From: Porphyridium purpureum
Lineage: Eukaryota
Direction: 5' to 3'
Length of the DNA: 64,000 bases
NCBI GenBank assembly: GCA_008690995.1
Contig: VRMN01000008.1
Location: forward strand, 310,001-374,000
Positions 37,589 to 64,000 of the stretch are shown piece after piece. The position numbers were made by a program, and so were the translations under genes. How positions within the stretch are numbered: position 1 is the stretch's first letter; each line of letters begins with the position of its first letter. The notes below the pieces were generated by a model that saw only the letters and a program-made list of their open reading frames with translations, searched no databases and had not been told where the DNA came from.

Positions 37589-37749
37589 CTGAGTAATGGC
37601 CAAACACGCGCGTTGTCCCTGTTGTAGGAAACGCCTTCCCACTCTGTGTGCACCGCGTGTCACAGTCCCTCGACTGTACACACACGGTGCTCACCTCCTG
37701 TTCTTCCTTGCTGCCAAAGGACCGTTGTGCAGCTTCCCAACACCTTGTA

Positions 37750-38008
37750 TGTCAATCCCTACGGATCCGAGAGCCGAGTTGCCAAGCTATCTCGGCGACC
37801 CAAGAAAGTTTTATGAACTCTTCTTCTTTTCTGTCGACTCTGTCTGTTTACTTTTTGACGGCTAGGCCGGCCGCGACTCGGCGTAGTTTTATACTAGGGC
37901 TAGCAGGGAGAGAGATGGAGACCCTCATCATAACCAAGTGGTTATATTGAGGGGGGCTGTACCCATGTGGGTACAGCGGTAGTTAATTAATTATTTAATT
38001 AATTGACA
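37750..38008 (-). repeat. 3' LTR (259 bp)
   Basis: TGTCAAT..ATTGACA termini; identical by eye to 43169-43427. Confidence 0.95.
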
Positions 38009-38454
38009 CTCCAGTATTTTTCTGCTGGGCCATGTTATAAAATTCATTAAAACATGAGACCAACGTGGGGCAGGGGCGCACGAGATGACGAGAAGAGGAG
38101 CAAGTTCATCTCGATGAGAACAGATTGCGAGAATGAAATTTCGAGAACGCCAACGCAGCGAGTACCCGAGGAAAGTCCCCCGCACGAAAAAGCTGACCTA
38201 TTGGCGACGGAGAAGGCGTTTCGCGAGGGACTGCGCAAGGCGAGAATCGGTTTGCGGGCAGAATCACTTGGGTGCATGTCGGACACGGTGCCTGCGATGG
38301 GCGAACGGTCGTCGGAATCATCCATGGTGTGCCACGAAACCGTTGCAGACAGAACTTGAACGGAAATGGTCGGCGTCTTGACCATGAACTTGCATGGGTT
38401 ACGCTGCGAGCTGGCGTCAGCACCTACAAATGGTGCGACAGGACGCGGGCCTGA

Positions 38455-41505: not shown

Positions 41506-41540
41506 GTCGTAGTCCGAATATAGGGGTCCCGAATTGGTTA

Positions 41541-43118: not shown

Positions 43119-43168
43119 CTGTCTTCAGCCACTTGTATTCTTTCACCGTTAGGAACGTAATTAGCTAA

Positions 43169-43427
43169 TGTCAATCCCTACGGATCCGAGAGCCGAGTTG
43201 CCAAGCTATCTCGGCGACCCAAGAAAGTTTTATGAACTCTTCTTCTTTTCTGTCGACTCTGTCTGTTTACTTTTTGACGGCTAGGCCGGCCGCGACTCGG
43301 CGTAGTTTTATACTAGGGCTAGCAGGGAGAGAGATGGAGACCCTCATCATAACCAAGTGGTTATATTGAGGGGGGCTGTACCCATGTGGGTACAGCGGTA
43401 GTTAATTAATTATTTAATTAATTGACA
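43169..43427 (-). repeat. 5' LTR (259 bp)
   Basis: Identical by eye to 37750-38008; followed by TSD TTGTA. Confidence 0.95.
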
Positions 43428-45433: not shown

Positions 45434-46045
45434 TTACTGACCGGAACTCGCGGCATCCGTCTTCTGCTCTGAACTTAACAGTGAGCGTAGTTCCGGTACT
45501 ATTTGGGACAGCACGGCTCTCTTGGCCCAGTACAAAAGCCGCAGTAATAACTTGACAGAAACAGATAGTACCGATAAGCACGAATAACCAGCGAAGAGCA
45601 GGATTTGCTCGACCAGCACGAGTATTCTTCGAACGTGGCGGTTGTTGATCAGCGCACAGAAAGCGCGCGAGATGGTGCGCGCCAGACGCATGACGGTTTC
45701 GCGAGCAGTAGCGTAAGCATCTATGATACATGCCATTACGCCTTGACGCTCGACAAGCGCGCCCGCGCTTTGCTCTGATACTCGGCGCATCGCGGCAGCG
45801 TCCCGCTGCACTAGTGCCACTATCGAGGTGCTTGCTGCATACCCCGGGTAAGAAGCGCCATACTGAATCTCACCAGAGCCGGACCGCGGCGCAGACCGAG
45901 ACTTTGGCGTTGCCAAGCCGTTTCCATCCGAGCCTGACTTCCGACCGGAACTTCGCTTCCTCCGCACTACCACGCGTTGCTGCGGGAGCACCAACGCCGA
46001 CGTGTTGTCAGCATCATCCTCATCCGCTCCCTTTGTCCACTCCAT
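45434..46045 (-). CDS. Hypothetical protein with one hydrophobic segment; may continue in a second exon (about 45071-45332)
   Basis: 203-aa ATG-started ORF; donor-like GTAAGC at its end; no family recognised. Confidence 0.4.
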   Translation of the reverse strand: MEWTKGADEDDADNTSALVLPQQRVVVRRKRSSGRKSGSDGNGLATPKSRSAPRSGSGEIQYGASYPGYAASTSIVALVQRDAAAMRRVSEQSAGALVERQGVMACIIDAYATARETVMRLARTISRAFCALINNRHVRRILVLVEQILLFAGYSCLSVLSVSVKLLLRLLYWAKRAVLSQIVPELRSLLSSEQKTDAASSGQ

Positions 46046-46634
46046 CCGCTCTGTCCAGATTCCCAGCGTTCGCAGTCGCCCAATCTGTTTTCACAGCCTG
46101 TCCACTCTGCACAAAGGCTCACTCCTCGGCGAGCGAAGGGGACGCCACGAGCAAGGCAGACGAGGACGTAGACGACGTCCACACAGCCTATTTCGCGCCT
46201 CCCGAACAGACTACGCAGTGAACGCACAAAGTGCTGTCGACAATGGAGAGCAGGGCTCAAACAGAAGACGCGGCGCAATCTCTTCCGCCTTGCAACCCTC
46301 CCCACACCACCACCTTGCCGTGATGTCACTCGCGCTCTCTCTCTCCCCCGCACACCCGCCACCCACGCTTTCACGCGGTCAACAAGTCACGCGCCAAACG
46401 AGCCGATTCGCCAGGTGTCTACCAAAAACACTCCGAAACATCACAAGTACTCTTTACTTGAAAAAATCCACTGTACCTTATTCCGTTCAAGCCTTGCAAA
46501 AAGAGAATAAGGTACAGCTCGAAAAAGATCGCTGTACATTTGAGTACACTTCGGATGCTGACCCTCGAGACAACCCTGCGAGCACATGGACTGCGACTTT
46601 GTGAAGCTCGGAAGAGGCTGTGGGATTCGTGGCC

Positions 46635-47207
46635 TCACACCGATTTGCGGCTTCGGATTCCCGGAAGTAGTCCCTTGTTCACGTACTCGCGCAGCACGAT
46701 GCGTGACACGCCCAGGTTTTTGTACACGGCGCGTTTTCTACCGGACATGATGCACGTCATCTTGACGCGCGAGAAGCACGAGTTGTGCGGCATCGCCGCA
46801 AGACGCTTGGTCGCCTCCGCGCGGACCAGGAGAGGCAGCGAGCGGTTGTGGACGATGCTGTTGAGCACCTTGCGCTTCATCTCGTGGTCACGGAACATCT
46901 TGCGCTTCTTCAGGTCCATAAAGTCCACACGCAGGTAATGGGCTTGCGGCGTCGCGACCGGCCGCAGCCCACCCATGGGTAACAGATCGGTGGGATGCAC
47001 TCTGTCTGCCGACTCACCATCTTCCCCTCTCTTCTTTCCCACAGCACCTGATGCGTGACGCACGCCCGGCGCCCCAACTCGCGAGCCGTCCAATGACCAT
47101 GCCATGCCGACAGGATTTGGCACATAGCCTGCGCCACGCATGTTCACTTTCCAATTTTCCCCGCACCGAGCCACCCACGCGAGGCGTTGCGCAAGTGACC
47201 TCAGCAT
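46635..47207 (-). CDS. rps14: Nucleus-encoded mitochondrial ribosomal protein S14
   Basis: DLKKRKMF..EMKR..LAAMPHNSCFSRVKMTCIMSGRKRAVYKNLGVSRIVLRE..GLLPG; N-terminus MLRSLAQRLAWVAR resembles a mitochondrial presequence. Confidence 0.85.
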   Translation of the reverse strand: MLRSLAQRLAWVARCGENWKVNMRGAGYVPNPVGMAWSLDGSRVGAPGVRHASGAVGKKRGEDGESADRVHPTDLLPMGGLRPVATPQAHYLRVDFMDLKKRKMFRDHEMKRKVLNSIVHNRSLPLLVRAEATKRLAAMPHNSCFSRVKMTCIMSGRKRAVYKNLGVSRIVLREYVNKGLLPGIRSRKSV

Positions 47208-48598: not shown

Positions 48599-48687
48599 TT
48601 TTCCGTGCTGCGGCTTGCCGCACGCAGTGTCTGCGCGGGCACTAGCCGGAGTCGGGATTGTGGGACAGCTGGCCAGCCCAATGAGCC

Positions 48688-51600
48688 ATGGACGAGCACA
48701 CGGACCAGCAGAACACTGGCGCAAGCGCGCGACACAGTGATTCTGCAGATAGGCGCACTTTTGAACCGCTACCGCTGCCACAGCACGCGAGTGGTGCGGA
48801 TGCGGCGCAAGCGGACCATCAGGTACAGACTGATGCGAGCAAAGCAGAACTCGAGCTGCAAGAAGCAGGACGGCATTTCGGCGATGATGATCAAAATAAC
48901 AATTCAGCCTCGCTGCACGGCGCGGCGTTGGCTGAGCGCGTGGTGGTCAAACTCGCCGAAGTCAGCGTGCAGGCCAGCGGAGAGCTTGAGCGGTCGGAGT
49001 TTGTTCTGAAGCAGCTAGGCATGCGGCGGATGGCGCGCTTAGCTGCGCGCCGCGCAGAGCAGCGCATGCTCGCGTATCATGCCGCCGCGTCGGCGCGAGC
49101 TGCTGACAACGAAGTTGAGGAGGATGCACTGAAGGCGCGCGCGATCATGCCGGGTGAAAAGTCAGTGCAAAGGATACCTGATGTTTCGCTGTCTTCGGTA
49201 CGACTGCTGGCGGATGCCAACGATACGAACTTGACTTTGGAGCAGCGGCTGATCATGGTCAAAGCCAGTGAGATCAACAAGCGCAACGCCGCGCTTGCAC
49301 GAGAGCGTCTCCCGCCGCAGCCTGTGCCTCCACGGGCAAAGACTCATTGGGATTACGTTCTGGATGAGATGAGCTGGATGAGCACAGACTATCGGGAAGA
49401 GTTTAAGTGGCGCAACTCGGCGCGGCGGCGGGTGAACAAAGCTGTGGCAAAATATTTCGACGAAGAAGACGAGCGGCGCGCCAGAGAGATCCGCGAGCTT
49501 CACGTTCAGCGTCGGCGAACAGCAGCTGGGGTAGCCCGGCATGTTCGTAAATTTTGGGCACAGGTGCAAGAGCTGGTCAGGTTCAAAGCTGCGCTTGAAC
49601 AAGAGCAGGTGCAGAAACGCGTGCGTGAGCAGGAGCTCGATGCGCTGCTCGATCAAACGGTCGCATTTTCGTCAAAGATTGCAGACAACTTGAATCCTTT
49701 GAAACACGAGCCTTTGCGACAAGCTGCAAAAAGATCTCAAACCAGCCGAGGCGGAGGAGACGTGTGCGAAGATCAGTCCAGCAGCAACAGCAACAACAGC
49801 AGCAACAGCAGTAGTAGTACCAGTGCGATGAATGTGTCTGATGATTATGAGGCGCCCGTCGACGAGGACGCAATGATGGATGACGAAGCAACCATGCAAG
49901 AAGCGGAGCAGTACGATATAGAACAGGAGGAGCAAGGAAATGGCGTAGCTGGTGACGTTAGCCGGAGGCGGAAGGAAGAGACCGCACAGCTCGAGCACGA
50001 AGCCGAAATGACTGTCGAAGAGCTGCTCCGCGTTCAAGGTATTGACCCAGATACGTATCTGCAGCATTCAAAGGATAAAGGCGGGCTGCGGACGGCAAAG
50101 AGTGATGCCTCGGTGCCTCGGAGCGTGCAGCGTGCAGAGCGTGCGATCGCGCCCTTATCACAAGATATAACTCAAACAAAGCGGTCGGGAAGAACTGTAC
50201 GGAGAACGGAAGCTGTTGCGGCGCTTGGTGTTGCGGGAGGGTCCAGCGATCGATCTGGCGCGGGGGAGAAAGTTGGATCTGAATCCAAATCTGGTTCTGA
50301 ATCAGTTGCAAAGAATGGCGTCGACCTCGCTGGCGTAGGAGAAGATCCAGAGTACACGGCGTCAGAAGATGGAGCGATGACGGACGACGAGCAGACTATG
50401 CAAGTTGAGGAGGAGACAGCTGCCATGCATGCACAACAAGAGGACAAGGACCTGAATATTGAGCGCGAGAATGAGCTCGAGCACCTGGCGCGTGAGTCAG
50501 AAGTTCCGCTGGAGCAGTTGTTGAAGGAGTACCTGATGCACGGCGAACCTGATTCTAGCGATGACGAACGAGCCGCCAGCAGCGATGGTAGAAGTGGCGG
50601 TGAGCGAGAGGCGACAGGGACAGACCAGGACGATGAATCCGGTCCGGAAATCGGAGAATCCACATCGATGCTGATCGCGCACAGGGAGCTCGGTAAGAAT
50701 GGAAAGAAAAAGACGGAGGAATGTGCTCCGCCAAATGAAGAAGGCACAGATATGCCGGACTCGAAAAAAGACCAATTTGGAAATTCCAGCACTGCAGACA
50801 TTGGTGAACAGTTACGACAGATTGCGGAAGAGCGTGAAATTGGGGTAACGCGGCTCCCGAGTGAGCTATTGCGTGGATCGCTGCGCAGCTACCAACATGT
50901 GGGTCTAGACTGGCTGGTAGCACTGTACAACAACCATTTGAATGGTATTTTGGCGGATGAGATGGGTCTGGGCAAGACCATTATGACGATAGCACTGTTG
51001 TGCTGGCTCGCGGTCGAACAGCATCACTGGGGTCCGCACTTGATTGTGGTCCCGACGTCGGTGATGCTTAACTGGGAGGTAGAATTGAAAAAATTCGCCC
51101 CGGGACTCAAGGTTCTGACGTACTTTGGCTCCATGCGAGAGCGCAAACTAAAGCGCCAGGGCTGGAGCAAGCACAATGCCTTCCACGTGTGCATCACCTC
51201 CTACCAGTTGGCCGTGAACGACGCAGCGATATTTCGCCGCAAAAAGTGGACATACCTCGTGCTAGACGAGGCGCAGAACATCAAAAATTTTGCGTCGTTG
51301 CGTTGGCAGACGCTCATGACCTTCAAGACCCGAAGGCGTCTTTTGCTTACAGGCACACCACTGCAGAATAGCGTCATGGAGCTTTGGAGTCTTATGCACT
51401 TTCTGATGCCGGACATCTTTAATTCGCATTCCGAGTTCAAGGCGTGGTTCAGCTCCCCGCTGAATGAGAACATCGACGTGGAAAGCGCTGATGACTGTGA
51501 TGGTGCGGCTGCCGCTGCTGCAGCAGAGAGGAAGCAAAAAGTGGCGCTGGTGGTGAAGCGGTTGCACGGAGTTCTGCGACCATTTATGCTGCGTCGGCTG

Positions 51601-54600
51601 AAGTCGCACGTCGAGCGCGGCCTTCCACCGAAGCGGGAGCAACTCGTGCGATGTACTCTTTCTAAACGTCAGCGCCTGCTGTATGAGGATTTTGTTTCAC
51701 GCGCGGACACCAAGGCTGCGCTCGCTAGTGGTAACGCCATGAGCGTGATGAACGTGTTGCTGCAGCTGCGCAAGGTGTGCAACCATCCTGACCTCTTCGA
51801 ACCGCGGCCCATTGTTAGTCCGTTTGTTCAGCGTGCGCTTTTTTATCCGATCCCCCGTCAGGCTGTGCTGGCTCTGGCCCAAAAGGACGAGTCGTATCGT
51901 GCTCTTCCTCTGTTCTTGCCAAACTACGGATTCGACCTCGCTGCGAAAGAGGCCAGTGAGCACGTTCTTTTTCGCGCTGATTCAGCGGAGCTGCGCGAAA
52001 TCAGCGCAAGCTGCGCGTCTGCAGCGGACGCGATGGAAGCCGAGGCGAAGCAGTTGTCGAAATCAGTGAATGGTAAGAGTACTTTTACAAGCTTGCTCCC
52101 TTCCGTCTCTTCTTCCGCGGCGCCAGTAGATGCATCGAGTGAGCAGGAGGACGAAGTAAGAGCTGCTGTTTTGAGCGGCCCGCAGCTCCTTGAGCACGCT
52201 CAGGATGTGGCGACGGGCTTTTCTGCGGCGATACTGCATAATCTTGCATTACTGACACGGTTGCGCGGCTCTCCGCATGCGAGCGGTGCGATATACGGTC
52301 AGCATTTGATCGAGGCCGTGTCCATCCCTCTCAAGGTATCTTCTGTATATGACAGTGATATCCATGGGGATCAGAGCGACTCCGTGTGGGACGTGATGCT
52401 GCCGCGGATGGAAGTGCGCGCCGAGCAGGCTAGAATTGTATCGGAAAAATTTGGCACTTGTGTGACTCTTGTGCGCGCCCCGATCGTGGAGTGCCGAATG
52501 ATGCGTGATTACGACTCGGCCGTGACGGTCTCGCACGCGCGAACGAATCAAGTCCAGGCGTTGAGGAATGCGCTTGACCCTTACGTTTCACTTTTTAGAG
52601 CGCAGCAGGTGCGCTCTGAGATGGCGTTGCCGGATGCGAGACTCATTCAGTGGGACTGCGGGAAGCTTCAAGCTTTGGCAGAGCTTCTGCGAAACCTTCA
52701 CGCCGGCGGACACCGCTGCTTGATCTTTTCGCAGATGACGCGCGTGCTCGATGTTCTCGAAACCTTTCTGAATCTTTACGGTTGGCGCTATCTTCGTCTT
52801 GACGGCGCGACACGCACCGACAATCGCCAGCGCCTTGTGGAGCGCTTTAACACGGACGCCAAGTTGTTTTGCATGATTTTGTCGACGCGGTCCGGCGGTG
52901 TTGGTCTAAATTTGACGGGCGCTGACTCGGTAATATTTTATGACTCCGATTGGAACCCGGCCATTGATGCACAGGCACAAGACCGCGCGCACCGTATTGG
53001 GCAGACGCGACCTGTTACCGTGTACCGCCTCGTGACAGATCGAACGGTTGAATGGAACATCATGCACAAGGCGCAGCAGAAACGAAATTTGGAGAGTCTT
53101 GTGATCTCGGACGCTGGCTTTACAACAGATAATTACGCTAGCGCAGCGCTTGAGTTTCAATCCCGTGGTACAATTGCCAGTCTTTCAAGGAATGATTCGG
53201 AGTTCCGTGGACTGCCAGACTTTGATTCGACTGGTAGCGGTGACAACGTGCTCGCGCGTCTCGCCCGAATGGACGTAGACGCAGATCTTGACGCTGGACA
53301 GGAGGAGTTGGCGCGCCAAATGCGAGAAAACGCGCTTCGAGAGAAAGAACAATTCAAGGACGATTTCGAAGGCGAGGACAGGCCAGCTGGCAACGCGCCA
53401 GGATCCACTCACCGTGACGCCGGAAAAAGCATTTCTGGAGACAAGCAGGCGAAAGTCGGCCAGCACCGTGAACCTGAGCAAGAGCCAGAGGATGCGGTTC
53501 GTATCACCGGATTGCTCAACGCGATCCAGAAGTATGCCATTCGGTACGTCGAGACGTTTGGGCTAGACGTGGACTCGTACCGCAGTATGAGTCGCAAGGG
53601 TACCCTGAAGCGCGTGCGCGACGGCGGAGGTCCAATCGCTGGCGAAAGTGCCTTGACCGGAGAAATGGAAGAAGCAGAAAGATCGGAGGCATCCGATGAC
53701 GAAGATGAAGTTCGAAGTGGGCAGCACGGCGCAAAGTCACTAGCAAAGGGGGAAGCGCGTCACAAAAGGCGCAAACACAGAAGTGGCGACCAATTGAATG
53801 GAAGTGAAAATAACCATGCGGTAGCCTCAGAATGGAAGGGAAACGATGACTTGGTATATGAAATTGATGTATCTGATCGCGCAACAAGGACAGACTATTT
53901 AAAAGCGCGGACGGACCCCGTCGTACGAAAAGGAGGAAAGGATGAATCGGCAGGAGCGCACAGTGTTCATGGTACGCATCAGCTTAACCTTTTCTTGCCG
54001 CTGCGAGACGGAGGTCCGGAAGAAATGGTTGGGTTCACATTGAGCTGTCCCAGCCCAGCAGCGGTTGGATCTTATGGAGTTTCAAGCGGAAGTCATTACT
54101 TTGTGTACTGTCACCACGGCTTAGGATATGGTCGATATGGCACGGTCAGTGCAGAAGACGCGGCGTTCTTTCGACACGCGTACGCCCGGCTCAGCCGAAT
54201 GCCCCACTTGGCCACAAGCGTACAACGTGAGACAGCCGCAAGGCGAATGGTGGCGCTTGCCAAGCGGGATGCCAAAGTGGGAGCCGCATCTTCACACAAT
54301 GTGGCTCCGATTCAGGGTAACCCCGCCCAAGAAGGAGCCCCGCGGCGGGAGCTGGTGCCCTCGACCCAGGGGCATGTTCACGGTACATCCGGGGTATCTG
54401 GAGCTTCTGGAGCATCAACGTCGTCAAGTCTGAAGTCGGCGAACAGCAATGGAGCCATGTTAGGAATATCGTCGGTGAAGGGTCTCAAAGGCCCTGCTGG
54501 AAGTAGTATCCTCAAATCCTCTCGGGCTTCCGCCCCGTGGACAGAGCAGGAGGACCGCGCATTAGTGTATCGCGTGCTTCTTGCCAATCCACCTCTTAGC

Positions 54601-56250
54601 ATGCCCGTGGCGGCACACATGATTGGCTTGTGGAACGGAGACCGTGTCAGGGGCACCTTCAACTGTGTGACGACACCGAATAGTGGCATCGTCAGTGGCG
54701 TTCGTGCTGCTGCAGGGCGTGGCGGTACGGGAACAAGGACTGCAGCGGAATGTGAGGAGCGACTGCGTGTGCTGCATCAGCATCTTATGGATCGCCGCGA
54801 GTGGGCTCCCGATGCCGTCATTGCTGCGCTTCACCGCAACACCGGTCAGACTGCAACAAGTAGTGGGATCGCGAGCAAGGAGCAGCTTCACCAACGTGAT
54901 GAACTGATTCCGGCGATCTTTGCGAGACTGCTCCCATCTACTATGCCTAAACATATGATCCCAGCTTCGATGCTGCTCCTAGACACTGGGGGCGAACAGC
55001 ATCAGAAGGCGCCCCTTGTAGCGCATGACTCGCATGCAGACGCCAAGGCAGCAATGGAAGCAAATAGCGCAATTGTCAAGGTGGCCGACCCAACGGACTC
55101 GAAGGTGAGTGTGGCCGTCGTGAGCCGACACGCGGCGGCGCAGTTTCAAGCGCAGAACGAAAATGCGAGTTCGCCTATGCACTTGCATCGACCGGGGTTC
55201 AAAGTGGACGAATGCGCGTCTCGACGCCGTGTCCTCAGCAAGAGCGGGAGCTACCCGGAACATCGGCTCAAAGCACTCAAGGCGAGTATTGCATCCGCTG
55301 CATACGTCGCGAGCCAGGCGGCTGCAGCCACAGGCTTTGGCGGCGTATACGCCGCGCACTTTGCGCAAGAGCACCGTGGCATGCGCCCTGGTATTGTCGG
55401 TGCCGCTGCGGCTGGCGGACCGCTGCAGCCACCCAAGGCGCTTGACGCGACAGTTGGTGGAATGACTCAGAGGACCAGTTCAGAAGTGGCTGCGAGGGCA
55501 GGCGTGGGTGCATCACCAGGGACGTCTGCTCCGTTGAAGCGTCCAGGGATCATGGGAAGCAGTGGCAGCGGCAGTGGCCAGCTGGTCCCGTCGGTGCGCG
55601 CTTCGGTACTTCCTGGCGCTACTGGTGGCGCTAATGCTGCGGCGGCCATGAAAGTTCCACCGCTGAATGGAACGGCGAAAGGCGCGAAAACCGTGAAGGC
55701 TGGAGCAGCAGGTAGCAGCGTGTCGAAAAAGCGGGCAATTTCTGACATCAGTAAGGCAGGAGCCGCAGGGGGTGGAAACAGCACAGTTCCAAGTACCCTG
55801 GCAAGTGGAGGTGTTGGTGGGAAGGGCAATAGTGGAAAAATGCAAGGAAAGAGTGCAGGACAGGCCGCAGAGCTGCCTTCGGCAGCCAAGATGCATCTTC
55901 AGTCGCAGACGAACAACAACCTTCAGGCCACGTCGCACGCCGCGGGAACCAAGAATGCTGCTTCGTCTTCGGCTGGTTCTGCGCCGTCACCCGTCGGACA
56001 GCCTCTTGTAAGTGGCAGCCACCCCTCTGCTGCTTCGGCCACAGGTGGAGGATCTGCGACGGGTGTAGGCAAGGGTGGTTCCGCTCCTGCCGCCGGAGCT
56101 TCGCTTGCGAGTGAAAGCGCGAACGCGATTACGAGCCCGAATGCTATGGCGTCCTTGCCTGGTTCCACCAAGGCGGCTACTGTACAAAAGCCCACAGGGC
56201 CGAATGGGCGCGTCGTGAAGAAGACCGAGGCGAATGACACAACTAAGTGA
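48688..56250 (+). CDS. SWR1: SWR1/SRCAP/PIE1 H2A.Z-exchange chromatin remodelling ATPase
   Basis: HSA (KTHWDYVLDEMSW), NGILADEMGLGKT, LDEAQNIKN, LRKVCNHPDLFE, long insertion, DCGKLQ, QDRAHRIGQTR, SANT-like PWTEQED. Confidence 0.95.
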   Translation: MDEHTDQQNTGASARHSDSADRRTFEPLPLPQHASGADAAQADHQVQTDASKAELELQEAGRHFGDDDQNNNSASLHGAALAERVVVKLAEVSVQASGELERSEFVLKQLGMRRMARLAARRAEQRMLAYHAAASARAADNEVEEDALKARAIMPGEKSVQRIPDVSLSSVRLLADANDTNLTLEQRLIMVKASEINKRNAALARERLPPQPVPPRAKTHWDYVLDEMSWMSTDYREEFKWRNSARRRVNKAVAKYFDEEDERRAREIRELHVQRRRTAAGVARHVRKFWAQVQELVRFKAALEQEQVQKRVREQELDALLDQTVAFSSKIADNLNPLKHEPLRQAAKRSQTSRGGGDVCEDQSSSNSNNSSNSSSSTSAMNVSDDYEAPVDEDAMMDDEATMQEAEQYDIEQEEQGNGVAGDVSRRRKEETAQLEHEAEMTVEELLRVQGIDPDTYLQHSKDKGGLRTAKSDASVPRSVQRAERAIAPLSQDITQTKRSGRTVRRTEAVAALGVAGGSSDRSGAGEKVGSESKSGSESVAKNGVDLAGVGEDPEYTASEDGAMTDDEQTMQVEEETAAMHAQQEDKDLNIERENELEHLARESEVPLEQLLKEYLMHGEPDSSDDERAASSDGRSGGEREATGTDQDDESGPEIGESTSMLIAHRELGKNGKKKTEECAPPNEEGTDMPDSKKDQFGNSSTADIGEQLRQIAEEREIGVTRLPSELLRGSLRSYQHVGLDWLVALYNNHLNGILADEMGLGKTIMTIALLCWLAVEQHHWGPHLIVVPTSVMLNWEVELKKFAPGLKVLTYFGSMRERKLKRQGWSKHNAFHVCITSYQLAVNDAAIFRRKKWTYLVLDEAQNIKNFASLRWQTLMTFKTRRRLLLTGTPLQNSVMELWSLMHFLMPDIFNSHSEFKAWFSSPLNENIDVESADDCDGAAAAAAAERKQKVALVVKRLHGVLRPFMLRRLKSHVERGLPPKREQLVRCTLSKRQRLLYEDFVSRADTKAALASGNAMSVMNVLLQLRKVCNHPDLFEPRPIVSPFVQRALFYPIPRQAVLALAQKDESYRALPLFLPNYGFDLAAKEASEHVLFRADSAELREISASCASAADAMEAEAKQLSKSVNGKSTFTSLLPSVSSSAAPVDASSEQEDEVRAAVLSGPQLLEHAQDVATGFSAAILHNLALLTRLRGSPHASGAIYGQHLIEAVSIPLKVSSVYDSDIHGDQSDSVWDVMLPRMEVRAEQARIVSEKFGTCVTLVRAPIVECRMMRDYDSAVTVSHARTNQVQALRNALDPYVSLFRAQQVRSEMALPDARLIQWDCGKLQALAELLRNLHAGGHRCLIFSQMTRVLDVLETFLNLYGWRYLRLDGATRTDNRQRLVERFNTDAKLFCMILSTRSGGVGLNLTGADSVIFYDSDWNPAIDAQAQDRAHRIGQTRPVTVYRLVTDRTVEWNIMHKAQQKRNLESLVISDAGFTTDNYASAALEFQSRGTIASLSRNDSEFRGLPDFDSTGSGDNVLARLARMDVDADLDAGQEELARQMRENALREKEQFKDDFEGEDRPAGNAPGSTHRDAGKSISGDKQAKVGQHREPEQEPEDAVRITGLLNAIQKYAIRYVETFGLDVDSYRSMSRKGTLKRVRDGGGPIAGESALTGEMEEAERSEASDDEDEVRSGQHGAKSLAKGEARHKRRKHRSGDQLNGSENNHAVASEWKGNDDLVYEIDVSDRATRTDYLKARTDPVVRKGGKDESAGAHSVHGTHQLNLFLPLRDGGPEEMVGFTLSCPSPAAVGSYGVSSGSHYFVYCHHGLGYGRYGTVSAEDAAFFRHAYARLSRMPHLATSVQRETAARRMVALAKRDAKVGAASSHNVAPIQGNPAQEGAPRRELVPSTQGHVHGTSGVSGASGASTSSSLKSANSNGAMLGISSVKGLKGPAGSSILKSSRASAPWTEQEDRALVYRVLLANPPLSMPVAAHMIGLWNGDRVRGTFNCVTTPNSGIVSGVRAAAGRGGTGTRTAAECEERLRVLHQHLMDRREWAPDAVIAALHRNTGQTATSSGIASKEQLHQRDELIPAIFARLLPSTMPKHMIPASMLLLDTGGEQHQKAPLVAHDSHADAKAAMEANSAIVKVADPTDSKVSVAVVSRHAAAQFQAQNENASSPMHLHRPGFKVDECASRRRVLSKSGSYPEHRLKALKASIASAAYVASQAAAATGFGGVYAAHFAQEHRGMRPGIVGAAAAGGPLQPPKALDATVGGMTQRTSSEVAARAGVGASPGTSAPLKRPGIMGSSGSGSGQLVPSVRASVLPGATGGANAAAAMKVPPLNGTAKGAKTVKAGAAGSSVSKKRAISDISKAGAAGGGNSTVPSTLASGGVGGKGNSGKMQGKSAGQAAELPSAAKMHLQSQTNNNLQATSHAAGTKNAASSSAGSAPSPVGQPLVSGSHPSAASATGGGSATGVGKGGSAPAAGASLASESANAITSPNAMASLPGSTKAATVQKPTGPNGRVVKKTEANDTTK

Positions 56251-56339
56251 GCATTAGGTTTAATTCTTCGTTGTGTAATACAGGTTCTGATGACTAATAC
56301 CATTTTTCTGGATTCTGCGCGTGCGCGTCTGTCCCATCC

Positions 56340-56506
56340 CTAAAATCCCCCAACGCCATCGCGAAATCCAAAAGGACTCACAAGACAAGAAAGAAATGGC
56401 GAGAAAACGGAAGTTCTTGGTCTTCAGGTCGTAACCTCTCCGTTTCCCACTCCTCGGTGGGGTCACGAACATAAATGGCGTCATCGCCTTCGCCATCGTC
56501 TGAAAA
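56340..56506 (-). ncRNA. Candidate omega-RNA scaffold remnant downstream of Fanzor stop
   Basis: Position expected for TnpB/Fanzor guide RNA; several nested stems visible; boundaries unknown. Confidence 0.35.
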
Positions 56507-57972
56507 TTACGAAGAGCAAGCACCAAACATGTAAATCGGAGTGCCCGGCGCCCCGGAGTTCCAGAGGAAAATACTGCAGCCGCCCTTGACATCACGGTTC
56601 AAGACTGCACCTCAAGGAGCAGAGCCACAATTGCAAAATTCGGCACGTCCCACTTGTGCCCTCATTGTATGGAAAGCAAGATGCAGGCCTTGGACGTGCG
56701 CATCATAGTGACGATTGCGGCTCCGACGTCGAGATGCCTACTCCTGGAGATGAGGTCTTGCTTGAAGCGTGAGTTCGCCGAGGTGATTTTCTTTCCAATG
56801 GCTTTGAAACGGGTCTTCCTTTTCTTCCACTTGGCCATCTGGGAGGCCTCAAACGAGAGTGAGAGTATAAGGTCTTGGTAATTGACCAGTAGATTGGCCA
56901 GCTGTACGTGAACTCCGTTGAGAAGATTACCAATCCTAATCCTGGCGCTGGCTTGGGTTGGATCTCTGGCAATCTCAATGGCGTTAGAAGGACTGCAGCG
57001 CCTCATCAACTTCCGACGGGCTGACCGCCACCATCCACGGAGCTGTTCGCAAGATCGGCTGGTCGAAGCACCTGCAGCATCTAATTTTCTTCATGATTTC
57101 ACTATCTCCCACCTGGAGGCTTCCCACGTTGCCGACGTCCTAGACTACCTTCAATGTCCTGTTTCCCCGGTCCAACAAGTCCGTGCTGATGTCCGGGTAT
57201 TCGTGGCCTATTTCAGCCCCTCGGTCTTCCCCAATCCTCGAGGAGGGACTATGGGCATGACCATCTTTAAGCATCTCACGGGACTGCGGACCTACTTGGG
57301 TCTCTTAGACAAAGTATTCCCCAAATCGGTTTCACCGGAGACTGCCCGCTATTCAGATGGACTCGTCATGGCCGTAGCTCTTTTCTCCCCTCTGTTTCAT
57401 GGGCTGGTCATGTGCCTGGAGCTTCATGTGGATCTCGTGCATCCGATGCAATCTGTCCGTTCATTCATTGCACAGTTTATGGAAGACATAATGTCACTTG
57501 GAATTCCATTCACTCCTTAGGTTGACACGACGTGTTCAAATTCCACGATGCTCTCTGATTCCAAAGAAGAATCCTGAAGTTGCCTTTCGCGGGTTCCATT
57601 GGCATTGCAAGTCTAATACCCATTCAATGCTCCCAAAATCTTTCGTGGCCGTGTTTCTTACGCCGCAGGACTCGCCCCTCAGCTTCAGATTCGCCTCGCC
57701 GGCCCGAACTTTTTCATTGAGGATTCTTGAAGTCGAGTATTTGGTCCAGCAAACAGTCTCTCCTTCGGCATGTTCGACCCATTATTTCTTCCTTTCCTGC
57801 GCATTGCTACAGTTGTCAACGCGGTGGTTATATGTTCACCTCAGACGCTCATCGCCTTTCTCAACGCCTCGCCCTAGCTTGCGCTTCAGGGATGGAGCTT
57901 CAGCACGGTGGCAATGATCGTGTTGCCTAGGTCCTTGGTCGTCTCCTTCGTCCGTGCCCTGGTCCGGCGCGT
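56507..57972 (-). pseudogene. tnpB: Fanzor2/IS607-type TnpB RNA-guided endonuclease pseudogene
   Basis: VLKLHP (about 57900), R*TYN (57841-57827), RuvC-I LLDRGNRT..*D (D at 57172), RIGNLLNGVHVQLANLLVNYQDLIL..FEASQM..SRFKQDL..RTSKAC, Zn-finger remnant FCNCG, RuvC-III NRDVKGG.SIFL (D at 56593). Confidence 0.85.
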
Positions 57973-58620
57973 TTACTGGCGTCTTCTTGTGGGGTGGGAA
58001 ACCATCCTCAGTCCATTATTTTTTGGCCTTGAAATACTGCAAATGGTCATTAAACCGGCATCCAGATCCTGCGTCTTTGTTCCCGTCCCCGACCCCGGAT
58101 TCCGAATCGACAATATCCGATACAATGGAGAGCAAGGTCTCGCACCTGGCTAGTGCCCGTTTCACCATATCGACTCCAAACCTGGCGAGCATGCGTATAA
58201 AAAGTTACCGACAAAGTCTGCCCCGAGAGCGTCGAGAGACGTGAAGAGACGTCCGTATCTTAAGCTCCGGCCAGAGCCGCGGTCTTGGATGATCCTCTCG
58301 TGGTCAGCACAAGCATGTTGGACGAACTTGACATGCCGTTCGAGATGGCCTGCCTTCTTGTGCTGGAAGAAAGAAATTAAGACGCACAGGATGGCCAGCC
58401 TGCTCCTCGGGCTCTCCGACCTGTCATCGGCCAAGATTAGAGAGAGGTCAAATGCGAACCTTCAGTTCGAGTCGGTGTCCTTATATTCGGCCGCCACAGT
58501 GCTGCCGATCCTGACGCTCCTGACGCTCCTGACGCTCCTGACGCTCCTGACGCTCCTGACGCTCCTCATCTTGCAATCTTTCGCGCAGAGCAACATAATG
58601 TTCCTGAACACCCAACCCTT
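57973..58620 (-). pseudogene. tnpA: IS607 TnpA serine recombinase (resolvase-type transposase) pseudogene
   Basis: IRTP (HTH wing), LIS..QHKKAGHLERHV..DHERIIQDRGSG, RMLARFGVD (58195-58169), QDL..LMTIC..NNGLR (58020-58006). Confidence 0.8.
58511..58564. repeat. Perfect tandem repeat (CTGACGCTC)x6
   Basis: Direct reading. Confidence 0.95.
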
Positions 58621-58972
58621 CTGCACGATTGCAGCAGAGGCACCGTATTGGCTTTGTCGGGCGCTTGCCTTCGTGCTCGGTAGCCTGGTCTCGAAAAAAT
58701 TCCTGCGCTCCTCTCCCCAGCTTTCTTCCGGTGACTTGGCTCTCATTCGTTCTAGCGACGTTCCTGCCAGACCACCAGGTTGAGACGCGTTTCTCGGTCT
58801 GCCCAATGGCCCTTCGCATTCCATGCGTCATGTTGCACGCGTTCCATCAGCGGTCCAAGAGAGTCACCAAGACGACACTCGAAAATTTCCTTGGCGGACG
58901 CCGAGCATGTCCTTTCAGCAGGTGACTGTTGGATATTCTCGCAAGCTCCTGGGATAGAAGAGCGACGCATGA

Positions 58973-61900
58973 ATGATGCGGGCGCATGCGCGGCAGCTGC
59001 GGGAGAAAGCTGCGCAACCTCCGAATGAAGAAGATGCGGATGTTCCCGCGCCATTGACTGGCGAAGCTGGCGCCTTAGTGGCGGGGCGTTTGCCAGGGCG
59101 TATGGGAGACCGCGCTCATGTTGGGCTCGCACCGAGGCGGCCGCAACGGAGTCCCAAAATCGTGGCGAACGACGGAAAGCAGAAATCTGGCGCTGGTGCC
59201 GATGGCGGGAGACATGCTTCTCTTGCGCATCGCAAGGCGCATAGCGGAGCAACACACCCAGGCAGAAACCAACCGCGCGATGTGTTGGATGCATCAGTTG
59301 CGGATATGCTGGACCATGAGGTGGCTCTTGCAGAGACATACGTTCCGCGGACTGAAGCGGCCCAACAAGCGTACGAGCACTTGCTGGCCTTTGTGCAGAA
59401 GAAGCTCGGTGACTACCCGATCGACGTGCTTTCTTCGGCTGCATGCGAGGTCATTGCCGCCCTGCGAGCCCATTCTGGCAAAGCTTTCCCTCCTGGGGAT
59501 ACAAACGATGGTCAAGCTCTCCGGGAAGGAAGCCAGACTATTGGTAAGGACAAAGTCAGCGCGATTCTTGGGGCGCTGTCGGATGCCGATGTGGCTATGC
59601 TCGGGATGTTTGCTGGTGCCATGGATGACTTCGAGGAACAGCGTGATGGACGCAACCAAGACGAAGAGCCGGAAGAGCTCGAGATGACACTCAATTTAGA
59701 TGGAGCAGAGGATGCTGAGGGTGAGCGGGACGATGAATCGTTGTCCGGTGCGGAGCAGGATGTTTCCGAGGAGGATGTGGTTGAGGCAGGCGAGAGTGAA
59801 TTCGTGCATGAGAAAGGTGTGAGCGATGACGACGCAAGCATCAACAGCGCAATGACGTACTCTGACCATTCTTCACCATCAGGGTCGGTCATCCGCGGGC
59901 CCCCTGACTTGGATGATGGGGTGCCGCCAGAAGTAAGCGGAGCTGGGCCCGAATGCGGCAACTTACTCGACTTGCTAACAGATTTCTTTCCCGTTGTTTC
60001 GACTCGACAGGCGATCGGTGCGCGACTATATGAGGAGCTACGGTGTGCGGAGGACGTGTTCGAAGATGACCAGGGCTCTCGCAAGCTATATTCACAGTTG
60101 GAGGCTATTGTAGGGGATGGCAAGGCCACACTGGTCGAACTTTTAATTAGGTATCGCTCACACTTTGTGAAAGAGCACGAGCGGAATTTGATTTCAAATG
60201 GAGCTATGGCACAAGAGCCCGCGTCAGCGGATGGATTTGCCGCGGTAATGTGTGAGAACGGCAACATGGAGTTCCAGGAAAAAGGGAAACGCAAGTGCAA
60301 ACGATTACGCGACCCACTGGCCGGAGAGAACTCTGAAAAGAGCGGGAGTGGCGATGAAGTGGGCAGTCACCATTCTGTGAGGCAGAATGCAGATGCTTCT
60401 ATCTCATTGCTTGGGGAGGAGAAGACGAAGAAGAAACGAAGAAAAAAAGATCTTGACGCCATGGCACGGAAGAATTTTCCTGGACAGTCTCATGCGGATC
60501 GAGGCTTGAATATCGTTGACATTGATGGTTTATTTTTTGATAGAGGCAGTCATTTCGTTTCCTCAACAAGTGTCGAATTGCCGAAGGGCACATTTCGTGT
60601 GAAAAAGAAGGACTGTGAGGAAGTTCACGTACCTGCCATACCCAGTCGAAAGATGGGAGGAGCGCCCAAGCTCGTTTCGGTCGAAGATATGTCACCGCTC
60701 GCGCGGGAGGCGTTCACAGGTACCACGCACCTGAACAGGGTACAGTCGGAGGTCTACCCGTGCGCGTTTGAGTCGGATGAGAACATGCTTGTGTGTGCGC
60801 CCACAGGTGCGGGCAAGACAAATGTGGCCATGATGTGCATTCTGCGCCTCGTTGTAAGAGAACCACTAGAGAATTTACGCGTCGTGTACATTGCGCCGAT
60901 GAAGGCGCTTGTGTCTGAGGTGGTAGGGAACTTGAGCCGACGATTAGCGTACCTGGGTATTTCCGTGGCGGAACTCACTGGCGACGCCTCACTGAGCCGT
61001 CGTCAGATGGACTCAACACATGTTGTGGTTTCGACGCCTGAAAAGTGGGATATTCTCACTCGCAAGACGGCGCAGGGCGTGAGAAGCTTAGCGTACAACG
61101 TTCGACTGATGATTATTGACGAAATCCACCTCCTGCATGATGAGCGCGGGCCTGTGCTGGAGTCTATCGTAGCACGCGTGCGTCGTTGTGTCACCCAGGG
61201 CAGCATGAATACCCGTGTGGTCGGCCTGTCTGCCACGCTTCCAAACGTGGAAGATGTCGGAGCGTTTCTGGGCTGCAGCCAAGAAAGCTCGAGTCGTCAG
61301 AAGAGCGTTTTTCATTTTGATGCTTCGTTCCGTCCATGCCCGCTCCAGTCCGTGTACGTGGGAGTCCAGAAGGGGAGCGGTTGGAAACGTTTACAGAGTA
61401 TGAACGAAATCGCCTATGAGCATGTTCGTGCGCAGCTGGAAGCATCTGCATCTGCCCAGGTTATTGTGTTTGTGCACTCTCGCAAGGAAACGGCGACGAC
61501 GGCCAAGTACTTTCGCGAAAGCGCGCGTGAGCAAGGTGTGCTGGATCGCTTGTTCATGGTACCGAATTCGGCGTCCCAGAATATTGTCCATTCGGAGCTT
61601 GGAACGGTGCGTAATGCTGTACTGAGAGACGTGATGGGATCTAGCGGGATCGGTATACACCACGCCGGCCTTGCGGCGGCGGACCGTGCGCTCACCGAGG
61701 ACCTTTTTGCAGATGGTCACCTGCGTGTGCTGGTGTCAACCGCCACACTTGCATGGGGTGTGAATCTACCGGCTCACGCAATTGTGATTAAGGGTACAAA
61801 GGTGTATTCACCGGAAAAGGGCACCTGGGTCGAACTGTCACCTATCGACGTGATGCAGATGATGGGCCGGGCCGGGCGTCCACAATTTGACTCGTTTGGT

Positions 61901-64000
61901 GAAGGAATCATCATTACTAGCGCTTCTCAAATGCAGTTTTATTTGAGTCTGCTGAATCAACAGCTGCCTATTGAGTCACAGCTCATGACAAGATTCACTG
62001 ACTCGCTCAATGCTGAAATAGCCATGCGCAATGTGTCTTCGATTGCTGACGGCGCTGAGTGGCTTGGGTATACGTACTATGGGACGCGAATGATGCGCAG
62101 TCCTTCGCTGTACGGAGTGTCATGCATCGCGCATTCTGAGCAGGATGCAATCACAATTCAGTCGCGGCGGCGGATGGATTTGATCCATTCGGCGTGCATC
62201 AAACTTGAGCGTGCAGGGCTTGTGCGCTACGACAAGAAAAAGCTGGTTGTGGGTCCAACTGAACTGGGTCGTATTGCCAGTGAGTACTACATTTCAAGCG
62301 CGTCGATGGCGGCGTACGTACAACACCTCAAGGCTGACATAAGCGTGATGGATTTGCTACGCGTGTTTAGCATGAGCGCCGAATTCCGAAGTGTCCGCGT
62401 GCGACAGGAAGAGAAGATGGAGTTAAAGCGTCTTGCGGAACGTGTACCGTATCCGCTTGTGGACGGCGGGAATGCCATGCTGGCCGACTCGGGATCGGCG
62501 ATCCTAGCGGGCCAGACCGTCGATGGAAGCAACGATAAAGTGGTTGTTCTGCTTCAGGCATACATTTCGCGGCTAACACTTGACGGACTTGTGCTTGCTG
62601 CAGATATGGTATATGTTACACAGTCTGCGGCTCGCATCGCGCGCGCTTTGTTCGACCTCGTGCTGCGGCGCAGATGGGCACAGGCCGCCGAAAAGTGTCT
62701 CAGCCTCTACAAAATGATCAAATGGCGGCAGTGGAACGTAGAATCGCCGCTGCGACAGTTTGGAAGCGCAGGTGCAGTAGGTCCAGATCATCATCGCATT
62801 GCAGTTCCAACCGAACTGCTTCGTAAGCTTGAGCGCAAGGATATGGAGCTGGAGCGCTTTTTTGACCTTGACGAGAAGCAGTTGGGCGATTTTTTGAGAA
62901 ATGCAAAGTTGGGCACTCTCACATTTCGCTTGCTCCACCATCTGCCATATCTCGACGTCACCGCACGCGTCCGTCCAGTTACTCCTCATCTCTTGGATGT
63001 CGAGCTCAACTTAGTACCGGACTTTGTGTTTGATGGGGCGCGCTTCCATGCTGCTGGGCAGGCTTTCTGGGTCTGGGTAGAGGATGCTGACGCCGACATG
63101 ATTCTTTTCGCTAAACAGGTCTTCATCCGGGCTGCGCTGGCTCATGAAGAGCATGCGCTCAAGTTTACCGTCGCATTACAGCAGCAATCACAGCAGCAAC
63201 AATCGGTGCGTTCAGTTGACCCGTACTATTTTGTTCATGTCATGAGCGATTCGTGGATATCGCGTGACGTGGTCGTGCCCCTCTCACTTCGGAGCTTGGA
63301 ATTACCGCAAGTGTTCGAGCTGCGAACCAAAGTACATGCGGATCCGTCTGCGACTCGCGGTGAGCAAAGTACGCTCCGTGCCACGACCGAGTTGGCAGCG
63401 ATCAAGTCCCAAATTGAAGGGGAGCTTGAGAGCAGTGGTCATGACGTCGTTCCAAGTGGCGGCATCTATCAGTGGCGAAAAAATGTACTGGAGGCTGTGC
63501 TGATGCATGTGCAAACGAACCTCGCCATTTCGCGTCTCAACGTAATCCAGTCGCGGGTGTTTGATTCAATATTTTGCACCGATGCCAACTGCTTTGTGTC
63601 CATGCCCGGTGGCAGCGGCAGGGGTGTTCTGATTGACCTTTGCATTGCCCGTGCATTTTGGTCAAAGCCGCGTGCAGTATGTGTCGTGTTAGCGGCTTAT
63701 GGTGACACGGCTGCTGTCCGTCGAAGGGAGCAACTCGCCTCGGGCATCGCGCGCCTACTGGGCATTGCCGCAAATGTGCACGTATTGACGGGAGATCTCA
63801 GCTCCGACTTTAAGTTACTTGAAAGCGGTGATTCAGGCGCGATTTTGGTCGTCACTCCAACGGCGTGGGACATGCTCTCAAGGCGATGGAAGCAGCGCAA
63901 ATCCATTGTGCGCATCGATCTTTTCATCGCAGATCATGTCGAATTGGTAGGCTCCTTTGATCTGGATGGTAGTGCAAGCGGATCCGGTTTATCCCAGCGG
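58973..64000 (+). CDS. BRR2: U5 snRNP 200-kDa Ski2-like helicase Brr2, 3' end outside window (absent from ORF track because it has no stop in the window)
   Basis: TGE..L..RMGDRA, YVPRTE..AYEHLLAFVQKKLGD, GSHF..LPKGTFRVKKKDCEEVHVPA, CAPTGAGKTNVA, DEIH, GLSATLPN, QMMGRAGRPQFD, Sec63 region, second degenerate cassette. Confidence 0.93.
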   Translation, partial: MMRAHARQLREKAAQPPNEEDADVPAPLTGEAGALVAGRLPGRMGDRAHVGLAPRRPQRSPKIVANDGKQKSGAGADGGRHASLAHRKAHSGATHPGRNQPRDVLDASVADMLDHEVALAETYVPRTEAAQQAYEHLLAFVQKKLGDYPIDVLSSAACEVIAALRAHSGKAFPPGDTNDGQALREGSQTIGKDKVSAILGALSDADVAMLGMFAGAMDDFEEQRDGRNQDEEPEELEMTLNLDGAEDAEGERDDESLSGAEQDVSEEDVVEAGESEFVHEKGVSDDDASINSAMTYSDHSSPSGSVIRGPPDLDDGVPPEVSGAGPECGNLLDLLTDFFPVVSTRQAIGARLYEELRCAEDVFEDDQGSRKLYSQLEAIVGDGKATLVELLIRYRSHFVKEHERNLISNGAMAQEPASADGFAAVMCENGNMEFQEKGKRKCKRLRDPLAGENSEKSGSGDEVGSHHSVRQNADASISLLGEEKTKKKRRKKDLDAMARKNFPGQSHADRGLNIVDIDGLFFDRGSHFVSSTSVELPKGTFRVKKKDCEEVHVPAIPSRKMGGAPKLVSVEDMSPLAREAFTGTTHLNRVQSEVYPCAFESDENMLVCAPTGAGKTNVAMMCILRLVVREPLENLRVVYIAPMKALVSEVVGNLSRRLAYLGISVAELTGDASLSRRQMDSTHVVVSTPEKWDILTRKTAQGVRSLAYNVRLMIIDEIHLLHDERGPVLESIVARVRRCVTQGSMNTRVVGLSATLPNVEDVGAFLGCSQESSSRQKSVFHFDASFRPCPLQSVYVGVQKGSGWKRLQSMNEIAYEHVRAQLEASASAQVIVFVHSRKETATTAKYFRESAREQGVLDRLFMVPNSASQNIVHSELGTVRNAVLRDVMGSSGIGIHHAGLAAADRALTEDLFADGHLRVLVSTATLAWGVNLPAHAIVIKGTKVYSPEKGTWVELSPIDVMQMMGRAGRPQFDSFGEGIIITSASQMQFYLSLLNQQLPIESQLMTRFTDSLNAEIAMRNVSSIADGAEWLGYTYYGTRMMRSPSLYGVSCIAHSEQDAITIQSRRRMDLIHSACIKLERAGLVRYDKKKLVVGPTELGRIASEYYISSASMAAYVQHLKADISVMDLLRVFSMSAEFRSVRVRQEEKMELKRLAERVPYPLVDGGNAMLADSGSAILAGQTVDGSNDKVVVLLQAYISRLTLDGLVLAADMVYVTQSAARIARALFDLVLRRRWAQAAEKCLSLYKMIKWRQWNVESPLRQFGSAGAVGPDHHRIAVPTELLRKLERKDMELERFFDLDEKQLGDFLRNAKLGTLTFRLLHHLPYLDVTARVRPVTPHLLDVELNLVPDFVFDGARFHAAGQAFWVWVEDADADMILFAKQVFIRAALAHEEHALKFTVALQQQSQQQQSVRSVDPYYFVHVMSDSWISRDVVVPLSLRSLELPQVFELRTKVHADPSATRGEQSTLRATTELAAIKSQIEGELESSGHDVVPSGGIYQWRKNVLEAVLMHVQTNLAISRLNVIQSRVFDSIFCTDANCFVSMPGGSGRGVLIDLCIARAFWSKPRAVCVVLAAYGDTAAVRRREQLASGIARLLGIAANVHVLTGDLSSDFKLLESGDSGAILVVTPTAWDMLSRRWKQRKSIVRIDLFIADHVELVGSFDLDGSASGSGLSQR

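What the first reader, a model, noticed from the sequence alone, without database searches (positions are those of the whole stretch)
56300..58640. Cryptic IS607-family element carrying a Fanzor2/TnpB RNA-guided nuclease in a eukaryotic nuclear genome
Seen: the 2.7-kb gap between SWR1 and BRR2 has no long ORF, but minus-strand frames give ordered motifs. First come serine-recombinase motifs (IS..Q..G.LER.V..DH.II.D.GSG; LARFG; NNGLR). TnpB motifs follow (KLHP, R[W]TYN, RuvC-I LD.G.RT, NL...H..LA..L.....I....FE.SQM, RFKQ.L, TSK.C, C.CG, RuvC-III NRD.KGG). Knowledge: this is the tnpA-tnpB layout of IS607; Fanzor2 derives from IS607 TnpB and is the eukaryotic relative of Cas12. This copy is dead (stops, frameshifts, the Glu before TSK replaced). 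Inference: a prokaryote- or giant-virus-derived OMEGA system colonised this alga, and intact or reconstructable copies may exist.
Basis: partly seen in the sequence, partly recalled or inferred. Interest (0 to 1): 0.9.

Follow-up and report, generated by a model that had tools for sequence, protein, structure and literature searches.

The report
Dead IS607-Fanzor2 transposon, red alga
Between two housekeeping genes of a red alga lies the heavily mutated wreck of a two-gene jumping element that likely once made a DNA-recombining enzyme and an RNA-guided DNA cutter related to Cas12; such wrecks are known from other eukaryotes, so only the host group seems new.

Summary
Confirmed, but dead and of a known kind. 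The 2.7-kb SWR1-BRR2 gap holds, on the minus strand, a serine-recombinase tnpA relic (58632-57976) followed by a tnpB/Fanzor2 relic (57966-56519). One frame searched against 1.84 billion proteins gave 20 hits: 19 TnpB/Fanzor2-type proteins and one resolvase. Frameshift-aware scores beat 100 of 100 shuffles for both genes. The nuclease has 3 frameshifts and 12 stops, DPG reads DRG, and the catalytic Glu is Met. No guide RNA or ends are recognisable. Contigs of public runs tile the locus and show no second copy at 80% identity, so there is no family to build a consensus from. Nearest intact relatives are unassigned metagenome contigs and a giant-virus bin, not cyanobacteria (AU p=0.012). The host is a red alga, likely Porphyridium purpureum (inferred). 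That species holds a separate, better-preserved but frameshifted copy, KAA8499336.1. I found no red-algal IS607-Fanzor2 in print. This scan has met such relics in other genomes before.

The parts
48685..56250 (+). Host SWR1-type SNF2 helicase ORF (flank)
   Evidence: Pfam SNF2-rel_dom 8.9e-86, HSA, Helicase_C; the name SWR1 is from domain layout and recall
56513..56524 (-). Eroded position of the 5' arm of the clade's right-end RNA, at the tnpB C-terminus; the 3' arm and right end are not recognisable
   Evidence: Aligned to the conserved motif; covariance model finds no significant match
56519..57966 (-). tnpB/Fanzor2 pseudogene core (HTH, WED/REC, RuvC-I to III, broken zinc finger); 3 frameshifts, 12 stops
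   Evidence: 143 of 422 aligned residues identical to intact P0279
56591..56596 (-). RuvC-III RD motif, kept
56704..56706 (-). Position of the alternative catalytic Glu (Ealt); now Met
57164..57175 (-). RuvC-I: LDRG where relatives have LDPG; Asp kept
57976..58632 (-). IS607-type serine-recombinase tnpA pseudogene (N-terminal HTH, then catalytic domain); 2 frameshifts, 1 stop; Ser kept at about 58372-58374 but YARVS reads CVLIS
   Evidence: 68 of 193 identical to L002 TnpA; best hit P0003 is Pfam Resolvase 8.2e-19
58509..58566 (.). 9-bp tandem repeat, 6.4 copies; an expansion inside the tnpA HTH segment; 18 bp shorter in two runs
58973..64000 (+). Host BRR2-type helicase ORF (flank, divergent from tnpA, runs off the window)
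   Evidence: Pfam Sec63, DEAD, BRR2_plug

Best explanation
This is a broken IS607-type element with a serine-recombinase gene followed by a Fanzor2-clade nuclease gene, which likely entered a red-algal nucleus by horizontal transfer long ago and has likely decayed without function since. Shown: both genes, their order, their lesions and their nuclear position. Inferred from the literature on intact relatives: TnpA would have excised and inserted the element by crossover at a short G-rich dinucleotide, and the nuclease would have bound an RNA made from the right end and cut the empty donor site beside a short motif, so that repair restores the element. Today neither protein can be made. The donor likely belonged to a clade seen in giant-virus bins and unassigned metagenome contigs.
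For: Unbiased phmmer: 19 TnpB-type hits and 1 resolvase among 20; 11 of 11 hits covering RuvC-I have DPG and 17 of 18 with the TSKxC motif have Ealt. Both genes beat 100 of 100 shuffles. The same intact loci (L001, L002, L003) are in the top 4 of 109 TnpB and of 59 TnpA references, so the two genes come from one element. The clade profile's best solved structure is 9b0l 'TnpB-like protein L79', E 6e-44, against 1e-9 for the chains named 'RNA-guided DNA endonuclease TnpB'; P0003 matches IS607 TnpA structures before gamma-delta resolvase. Only 43 of 96 near-invariant columns are kept, against 98% on average in 27 intact relatives. Contigs tile SWR1-element-BRR2. A 100/100 branch separates the relic from the bacterial group; AU p=0.012 against joining them.
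Against: Curated profile libraries see nothing in single frames. The profiles were built from relatives first found with the relic, so those scores are not fully independent. The relic is a long branch (2.04) with no starred sister group, and the careful tree used LG+G4 on 36 of 100 rows without a canonical TnpB outgroup. Ends and guide RNA were not found, so insertion by transposition is not shown. No single contig spans SWR1 to the BRR2 start. The host species is inferred.
Confidence: 0.9

Rival explanations
1. The element never transposed in the alga; it arrived as a passenger on a piece of giant-virus or bacterial DNA and decayed in place. This concerns the route, and is compatible with the identity above.
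For: Single copy at 80% identity or more; close relatives L002/L160 and L161 lie on contigs of a bin labelled GVMAG; Gilbert and Cordaux (PMC3673617, passages) found no evidence of IS607 transposition in eukaryote genomes.
Against: Homology fills most of the gap (56519-58632 of 56251-58972) and no other viral gene was seen in it; a second copy of the same clade exists in P. purpureum, though a sister relation is unresolved (AU p=0.48).
Confidence: 0.3
2. The relic has been co-opted as non-coding or regulatory DNA (promoter of BRR2, long RNA) or as an antisense ORF.
For: It is at the same locus in all 8 laid runs and begins about 340 bp from the BRR2 start; contigs of two RNA libraries cover parts of it; two + strand frames of 202 and 209 aa exist.
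Against: Lesions hit conserved and variable columns alike; in run X16 the element contig has 11 differences in 2299 bases against 3 of 3402 and 7 of 3788 in SWR1, though BRR2 has 12 of 3303; no Rfam match and no unusual fold at the right end (z -0.75). The + strand frames could not be tested.
Confidence: 0.06
3. Chance motifs, a chimeric assembly or contaminant DNA.
For: No hit in Pfam, NCBIfam, PHROGs or PDB with single frames.
Against: Library-wide E down to 8e-8, collinear match over both genes, and over 99% identical contigs joined to host genes in four DNA runs of four studies.
Confidence: 0.02

Closest known systems
Eukaryotic IS607-like sequences (Gilbert and Cordaux 2013, PMC3673617) and Fanzor2 elements with serine recombinase (Bao and Jurka 2013, PMC3627910: ACa-1/-2, ISvMimi, ISvAR158_1)
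   Same: tnpA(Ser)-tnpB order, nuclear location among host genes, low copy number, stops and frameshifts, no clear terminal inverted repeats
   Different: Host is a red alga; those papers list Amoebozoa, fungi, stramenopiles, a choanoflagellate and large viruses, and for red algae only the Fanzor1 element CMe-1A. This copy is far more decayed than the intact Acanthamoeba and virus copies.
Mimivirus Fanzor2 (ApmFNuc; Jiang et al. 2023, PMC10530073; PDB 9b0l, whose identity with it is recalled)
   Same: Best solved match to the clade profile (E 6e-44); same domain order and DPG/Ealt clade
   Different: ApmFNuc is an active RNA-guided nuclease with a guide RNA; the relic lacks an ORF, DPG, Ealt, two zinc-finger cysteines and a detectable RNA
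Cyanobacterial pro-Fanzors (Yoon et al. 2023, PMC10711439)
   Same: DPG/Ealt clade, IS607 TnpA, overlapping genes
   Different: The relic lies across a 100/100 branch from them; AU p=0.012
Porphyridium purpureum FVE85_6921 / KAA8499336.1 (annotated as hypothetical; P0272)
   Same: Same sub-clade; 36% identical to L001 TnpB over 401 columns; likely the same host species
   Different: On another contig; open for about 467 codons, then its tail matches an alternative frame of tnpB relatives, i.e. a frameshift; reads DPS; only 23% identical to the relic in shared columns
CMe-1A Fanzor1 of Cyanidioschyzon merolae (PMC3627910)
   Same: Fanzor element in a unicellular red alga
   Different: Fanzor1, about 150 copies, no serine recombinase; by eye its sequence lacks the relic's motifs, and no alignment was run

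Membership tests
IS607-family element | tnpA encodes a serine recombinase with N-terminal HTH | tested here: met
   As a pseudogene: collinear with L002 TnpA from HTH to helix E; P0003 matches IS607 TnpA structures
IS607-family element | tnpA followed by (overlapping) tnpB on one strand | tested here: met
   58632-57976 then 57966-56519; 86 of 86 intact pairs overlap in one relative frame
IS607-family element | Ends at a GG-type dinucleotide, no target duplication, no true terminal inverted repeats | tested here: inconclusive
   No convincing end repeats; the clade's right-end motif is not recognisable and no left-end motif emerged
IS607-family element | Intact catalytic motif (YARVS, DRLxR) | tested here: not met
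   Reads CVLIS; frameshift and small deletion just before LARFG. Filed as a relic, not a working element
Fanzor2 (working protein) | RuvC-I DPG | tested here: not met
   DRG; all 11 covering hits have DPG
Fanzor2 (working protein) | Ealt six residues before the zinc finger, no canonical Glu | tested here: not met
   Ealt position is Met; the position of the clade's conserved Pro (taken as the canonical-Glu site) is Leu
Fanzor2 (working protein) | D-X(125,275)-[TS][TS]xx-C4 zinc finger-X(5,50)-RD | tested here: not met
   D, TS and RD kept; 2 of 4 cysteines kept, frameshift and stop inside
Fanzor2 clade (descent) | Falls in the DPG/Ealt clade with IS607 TnpA | tested here: met
   All 19 TnpB hits belong to it where the motifs are covered; nested in a 100-supported sub-clade; no canonical TnpB outgroup was in the tree
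Fanzor2 clade (descent) | Encoded by a eukaryote or its virus | tested here: met
   Between SWR1 and BRR2, tiled by contigs; red-algal best named hits for a window gene
Fanzor2 (working protein) | Right-end guide RNA | tested here: not met
   Model from 7 relatives finds no significant match; a weak model, so erosion and deletion cannot be told apart
Fanzor2 (working protein) | RNA-guided DNA cleavage | not testable with these tools
   Bench assay; excluded for this copy by 12 stops and 3 frameshifts
Fanzor1 / CMe-1A | Fanzor1 clade, non-IS607 transposase or none | tested here: not met
   Serine recombinase upstream; all hits are Fanzor2-type

The most novel reading that the evidence does not exclude
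Porphyridium was invaded, perhaps twice, by a giant-virus-borne IS607-Fanzor2 lineage that transposed in a red-algal nucleus: this relic marks an old wave, and KAA8499336.1 is a young copy whose single apparent frameshift may be recent or an assembly error, leaving a working RNA-guided nuclease in some strains and a fossil trace of giant viruses infecting unicellular red algae.
Probability: 0.15. Interest if true: 0.55.

Novelty: new member of a known kind. Interest (0 to 1): 0.27.

Why it matters
It extends IS607-Fanzor2 elements to red algae, where my searches found only Fanzor1 reported, and it points to an unremarked better-preserved copy in P. purpureum and to a sub-clade of intact elements (L001-L004, L161) with a clear right-end RNA that could be assayed. 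The relic itself gives no new mechanism and no usable enzyme.

Tried and rejected
No whole genome is held for this window, so copies could only be sought through contigs of runs. Pfam, NCBIfam and PHROGs on three minus frames and Pfam on nine sub-segments: nothing relevant. Word-indexed search with the 142-aa frame: none. PDB with two single-frame pieces: one irrelevant nanobody and none. SWR1 DNA against phages: no match, uninformative. Exact look-up of two window ORFs: absent, as they were not cut at a start codon. CMe-1A identity was considered and rejected. The first tree used two wrong frames and is discarded; searches are the corrected ones. Relic as sister of P0272: FastTree 85, not recovered by IQ-TREE, AU p=0.48, rare-residue sharing 18 of 141, fifth of 28: unresolved. 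The L001-guided TnpB alignment upstream of 57970 (17 stops in all) ignores the frameshifts seen in tnpA, so I count lesions on the core only. Right-end pattern scans of viral contigs: 46 loci, only 2 with a TnpB ORF and both already held, one more (L225) used for the RNA alignment. A GGAGTGGG stretch near 56445 could be the right end, but the model does not support it. Expression: contigs of RNA libraries cover the element at low flat depth, which cannot show transcription. The two Porphyridium rows marked Fanzor in Yoon's regex table look like unrelated zinc-finger host proteins (by eye and recall). The two + strand frames remain untested. No structure or complex was predicted.

Full report
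Setting. The window is gene-dense, about 54% G+C, with long uninterrupted ORFs. The best named hits for a window Hsp70-like gene are red algae at 35-36% identity (Agarophyton, Compsopogon). The window's own protein is held by NCBI, UniRef, nr and eukprot on an 884-kb contig, the same source set as a P. purpureum protein, and no named Porphyridium orthologue appears among the 120 hits listed. I infer P. purpureum (about 85%); no tool named it. The gap 56251-58972 lies between a SWR1-type and a BRR2-type helicase.

Observation. Curated libraries miss them. An exhaustive phmmer of one frame, stops read as X, against 1.84 billion proteins returned 20 hits at E<=0.001: 19 carry TnpB-type Pfam domains and one is a resolvase. 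Searching these back placed the resolvase at 58536-57931 and TnpB pieces at 57966-56519. From 184 related loci I built profiles of 109 TnpB and 59 TnpA sequences after removing near-duplicates. Frameshift-aware scores were 73.3 and 34.1; 100 dinucleotide shuffles reached at most 27.5 and 22.5, and the rest of the window 26.7 and 25.9. These profiles derive from hits found with the relic, so one search is the independent test.

Anatomy. tnpA aligns to L002 TnpA over 58632-57976 with 68 of 193 identities, 2 frameshifts and 1 stop. The HTH segment contains the 9-bp tandem repeat, an expansion that is 18 bp shorter in runs X5 and X14. The nucleophile Ser aligns, but YARVS reads CVLIS. The tnpB core aligns to P0279 over 57966-56519 with 143 of 422 identities, 3 frameshifts and 12 stops. 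RuvC-I is DRG, the Ealt position is Met, two of four zinc-finger cysteines remain, and RD is kept. The relic keeps 43 of 96 columns that are at least 90% conserved among 27 intact relatives. Seven close loci, picked for carrying the motif, end in an invariant 10-base right-end motif that can pair with a motif at the tnpB C-terminus. A covariance model of them finds nothing significant in the relic (best E 0.34 in 450 bases). The ends are therefore undetermined.

Is it genomic, and are there copies? Twenty of 24 listed runs hold half or more of the words of 55000-60000. In four DNA runs from four studies, single contigs join SWR1 to the element up to the tandem repeat or across it (X5, to 58847); in X6 and X11 a contig runs from the repeat into BRR2. 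X14 has one contig over 49296-58852. No single contig spans both flanking ORFs, and no joint skips the element, so no empty site was seen. At 80% likeness no other copy was laid in 8 of 8 runs, apart from a 37-base piece in X6; the same setting did pick up a diverged piece matching the SWR1 helicase region, so close copies would likely have shown. More diverged copies are not excluded.

Relatives and origin. L001, L002 and L003 rank in the top four for both genes. L002/L160 and L161 lie on contigs of a bin labelled GVMAG; the others are short unassigned metagenome contigs. In an IQ-TREE of 36 of 100 rows, the relic sits on the far side of a 100/100 branch from seven named bacterial sequences and one viral-contig sequence that groups with them; forcing it among those eight is rejected at p=0.012. 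Its exact sister is unresolved and its branch is long. A direct cyanobacterial or plastid origin is thus disfavoured; a giant-virus route is plausible, not shown.

A second copy in the likely host. A profile search returned P. purpureum FVE85_6921 (KAA8499336.1) on a 5.7-Mb contig. It is 36% identical to L001 TnpB over 401 columns and keeps 41 of 48 near-invariant columns; its last 70 residues match an alternative frame of tnpB relatives, which indicates a frameshift. I could not read its DNA. Whether it shares a family with the relic is open.

Mechanism. Shown: gene identity, order, lesions, location. Inferred from papers on intact elements: TnpA alone moves IS607 by crossover at GG without target duplication (PMC6188088, passages); IS607 TnpB and Fanzor2 cut DNA with a right-end RNA next to a short motif (PMC10711439 and PMC10530073, passages). 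That cutting the vacated site promotes retention is recalled, and matches an abstract start in the listing. This copy can do none of it.

Literature. Bao and Jurka (PMC3627910; passages, and one supplement searched for CMe) list one red-algal family, the Fanzor1 CMe-1A. Gilbert and Cordaux (PMC3673617; passages) report 80 IS607-like sequences, with stops and frameshifts, in Amoebozoa, fungi and stramenopiles. Yoon et al. (PMC10711439; first part of the text, passages, supplement searched) define DPG and Ealt; their tables lack KAA8499336. Saito et al. (PMC10432273; passages, nine supplements searched, one scan unreadable) have no Porphyridium entry. Jiang et al. (PMC10530073; passages, two supplements searched) name rhodophyta among hosts without type; data tables that I could not see may hold a red-algal Fanzor2. 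Full-text searches: Porphyridium+TnpB 0 papers, FVE85_6921 0, Porphyridium+Fanzor 1 review seen only as a listing, Fanzor+Rhodophyta 7 papers, 6 listed. The library lacks most subscription journals. Earlier notes of this scan describe similar dead IS607-Fanzor2 relics in other genomes and three C. merolae cases that proved to be Fanzor1; none matched this DNA.

Verdict. A real, single, long-dead IS607 element descended from the Fanzor2 clade. It fails the tests for a working Fanzor2 and is filed as a relic of a known kind. The modest new points are the red-algal host and the better-preserved copy in P. purpureum. Interest 0.27.

Noticed in passing
P0272 (KAA8499336.1, not in the window): P. 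purpureum hypothetical protein FVE85_6921 is a frameshifted Fanzor2 of the same sub-clade, far better preserved than the relic; its DNA context is worth reading.
   Followed up: partly
L001-L183: In 86 of 86 tnpA-tnpB pairs (not de-duplicated; TnpB frames of 440 aa or more only) the tnpB frame stays open across tnpA for a median 611 bases, always in the same relative frame, and a conserved TnpB N-terminal motif lies inside tnpA in 80 of 80: extensive dual coding.
   Followed up: partly
L001:2085-2204, L002, L003, L004, L006, L161, L225: Conserved right-end RNA candidate: an invariant terminal motif pairing with a motif at the tnpB C-terminus, with some covarying inner stems. L225 has the RNA end but no TnpB ORF was detected.
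   Followed up: partly
window 37749-43445: Copia-type LTR retrotransposon (RVT_2, rve, zinc knuckle) with 278-bp terminal repeats 97.5% identical, so a recent insertion.
   Followed up: partly
window about 36440-37600: DDE_3 (Tc1/mariner-type) transposase remnant, E 4.5e-14, next to the LTR element.
   Followed up: no
window 5257-6472 and 12894-14109: 1216-bp direct duplication, 99.4% identical, between a large multi-AAA/helicase ORF (7311-15053) and a partial copy downstream of it.
   Followed up: no
window 27092-28996: DUF2252 ('conserved in bacteria') ORF, E 6.7e-56: candidate horizontally acquired gene.
   Followed up: no
window about 44250-47200: A CRM (CRS1_YhbY) domain gene on + and a bacterial-type ribosomal S14 gene on -, likely organelle-targeted.
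   Followed up: no
window 16073-19621: 1182-aa ORF on the minus strand with no Pfam match at E<=1.
   Followed up: no
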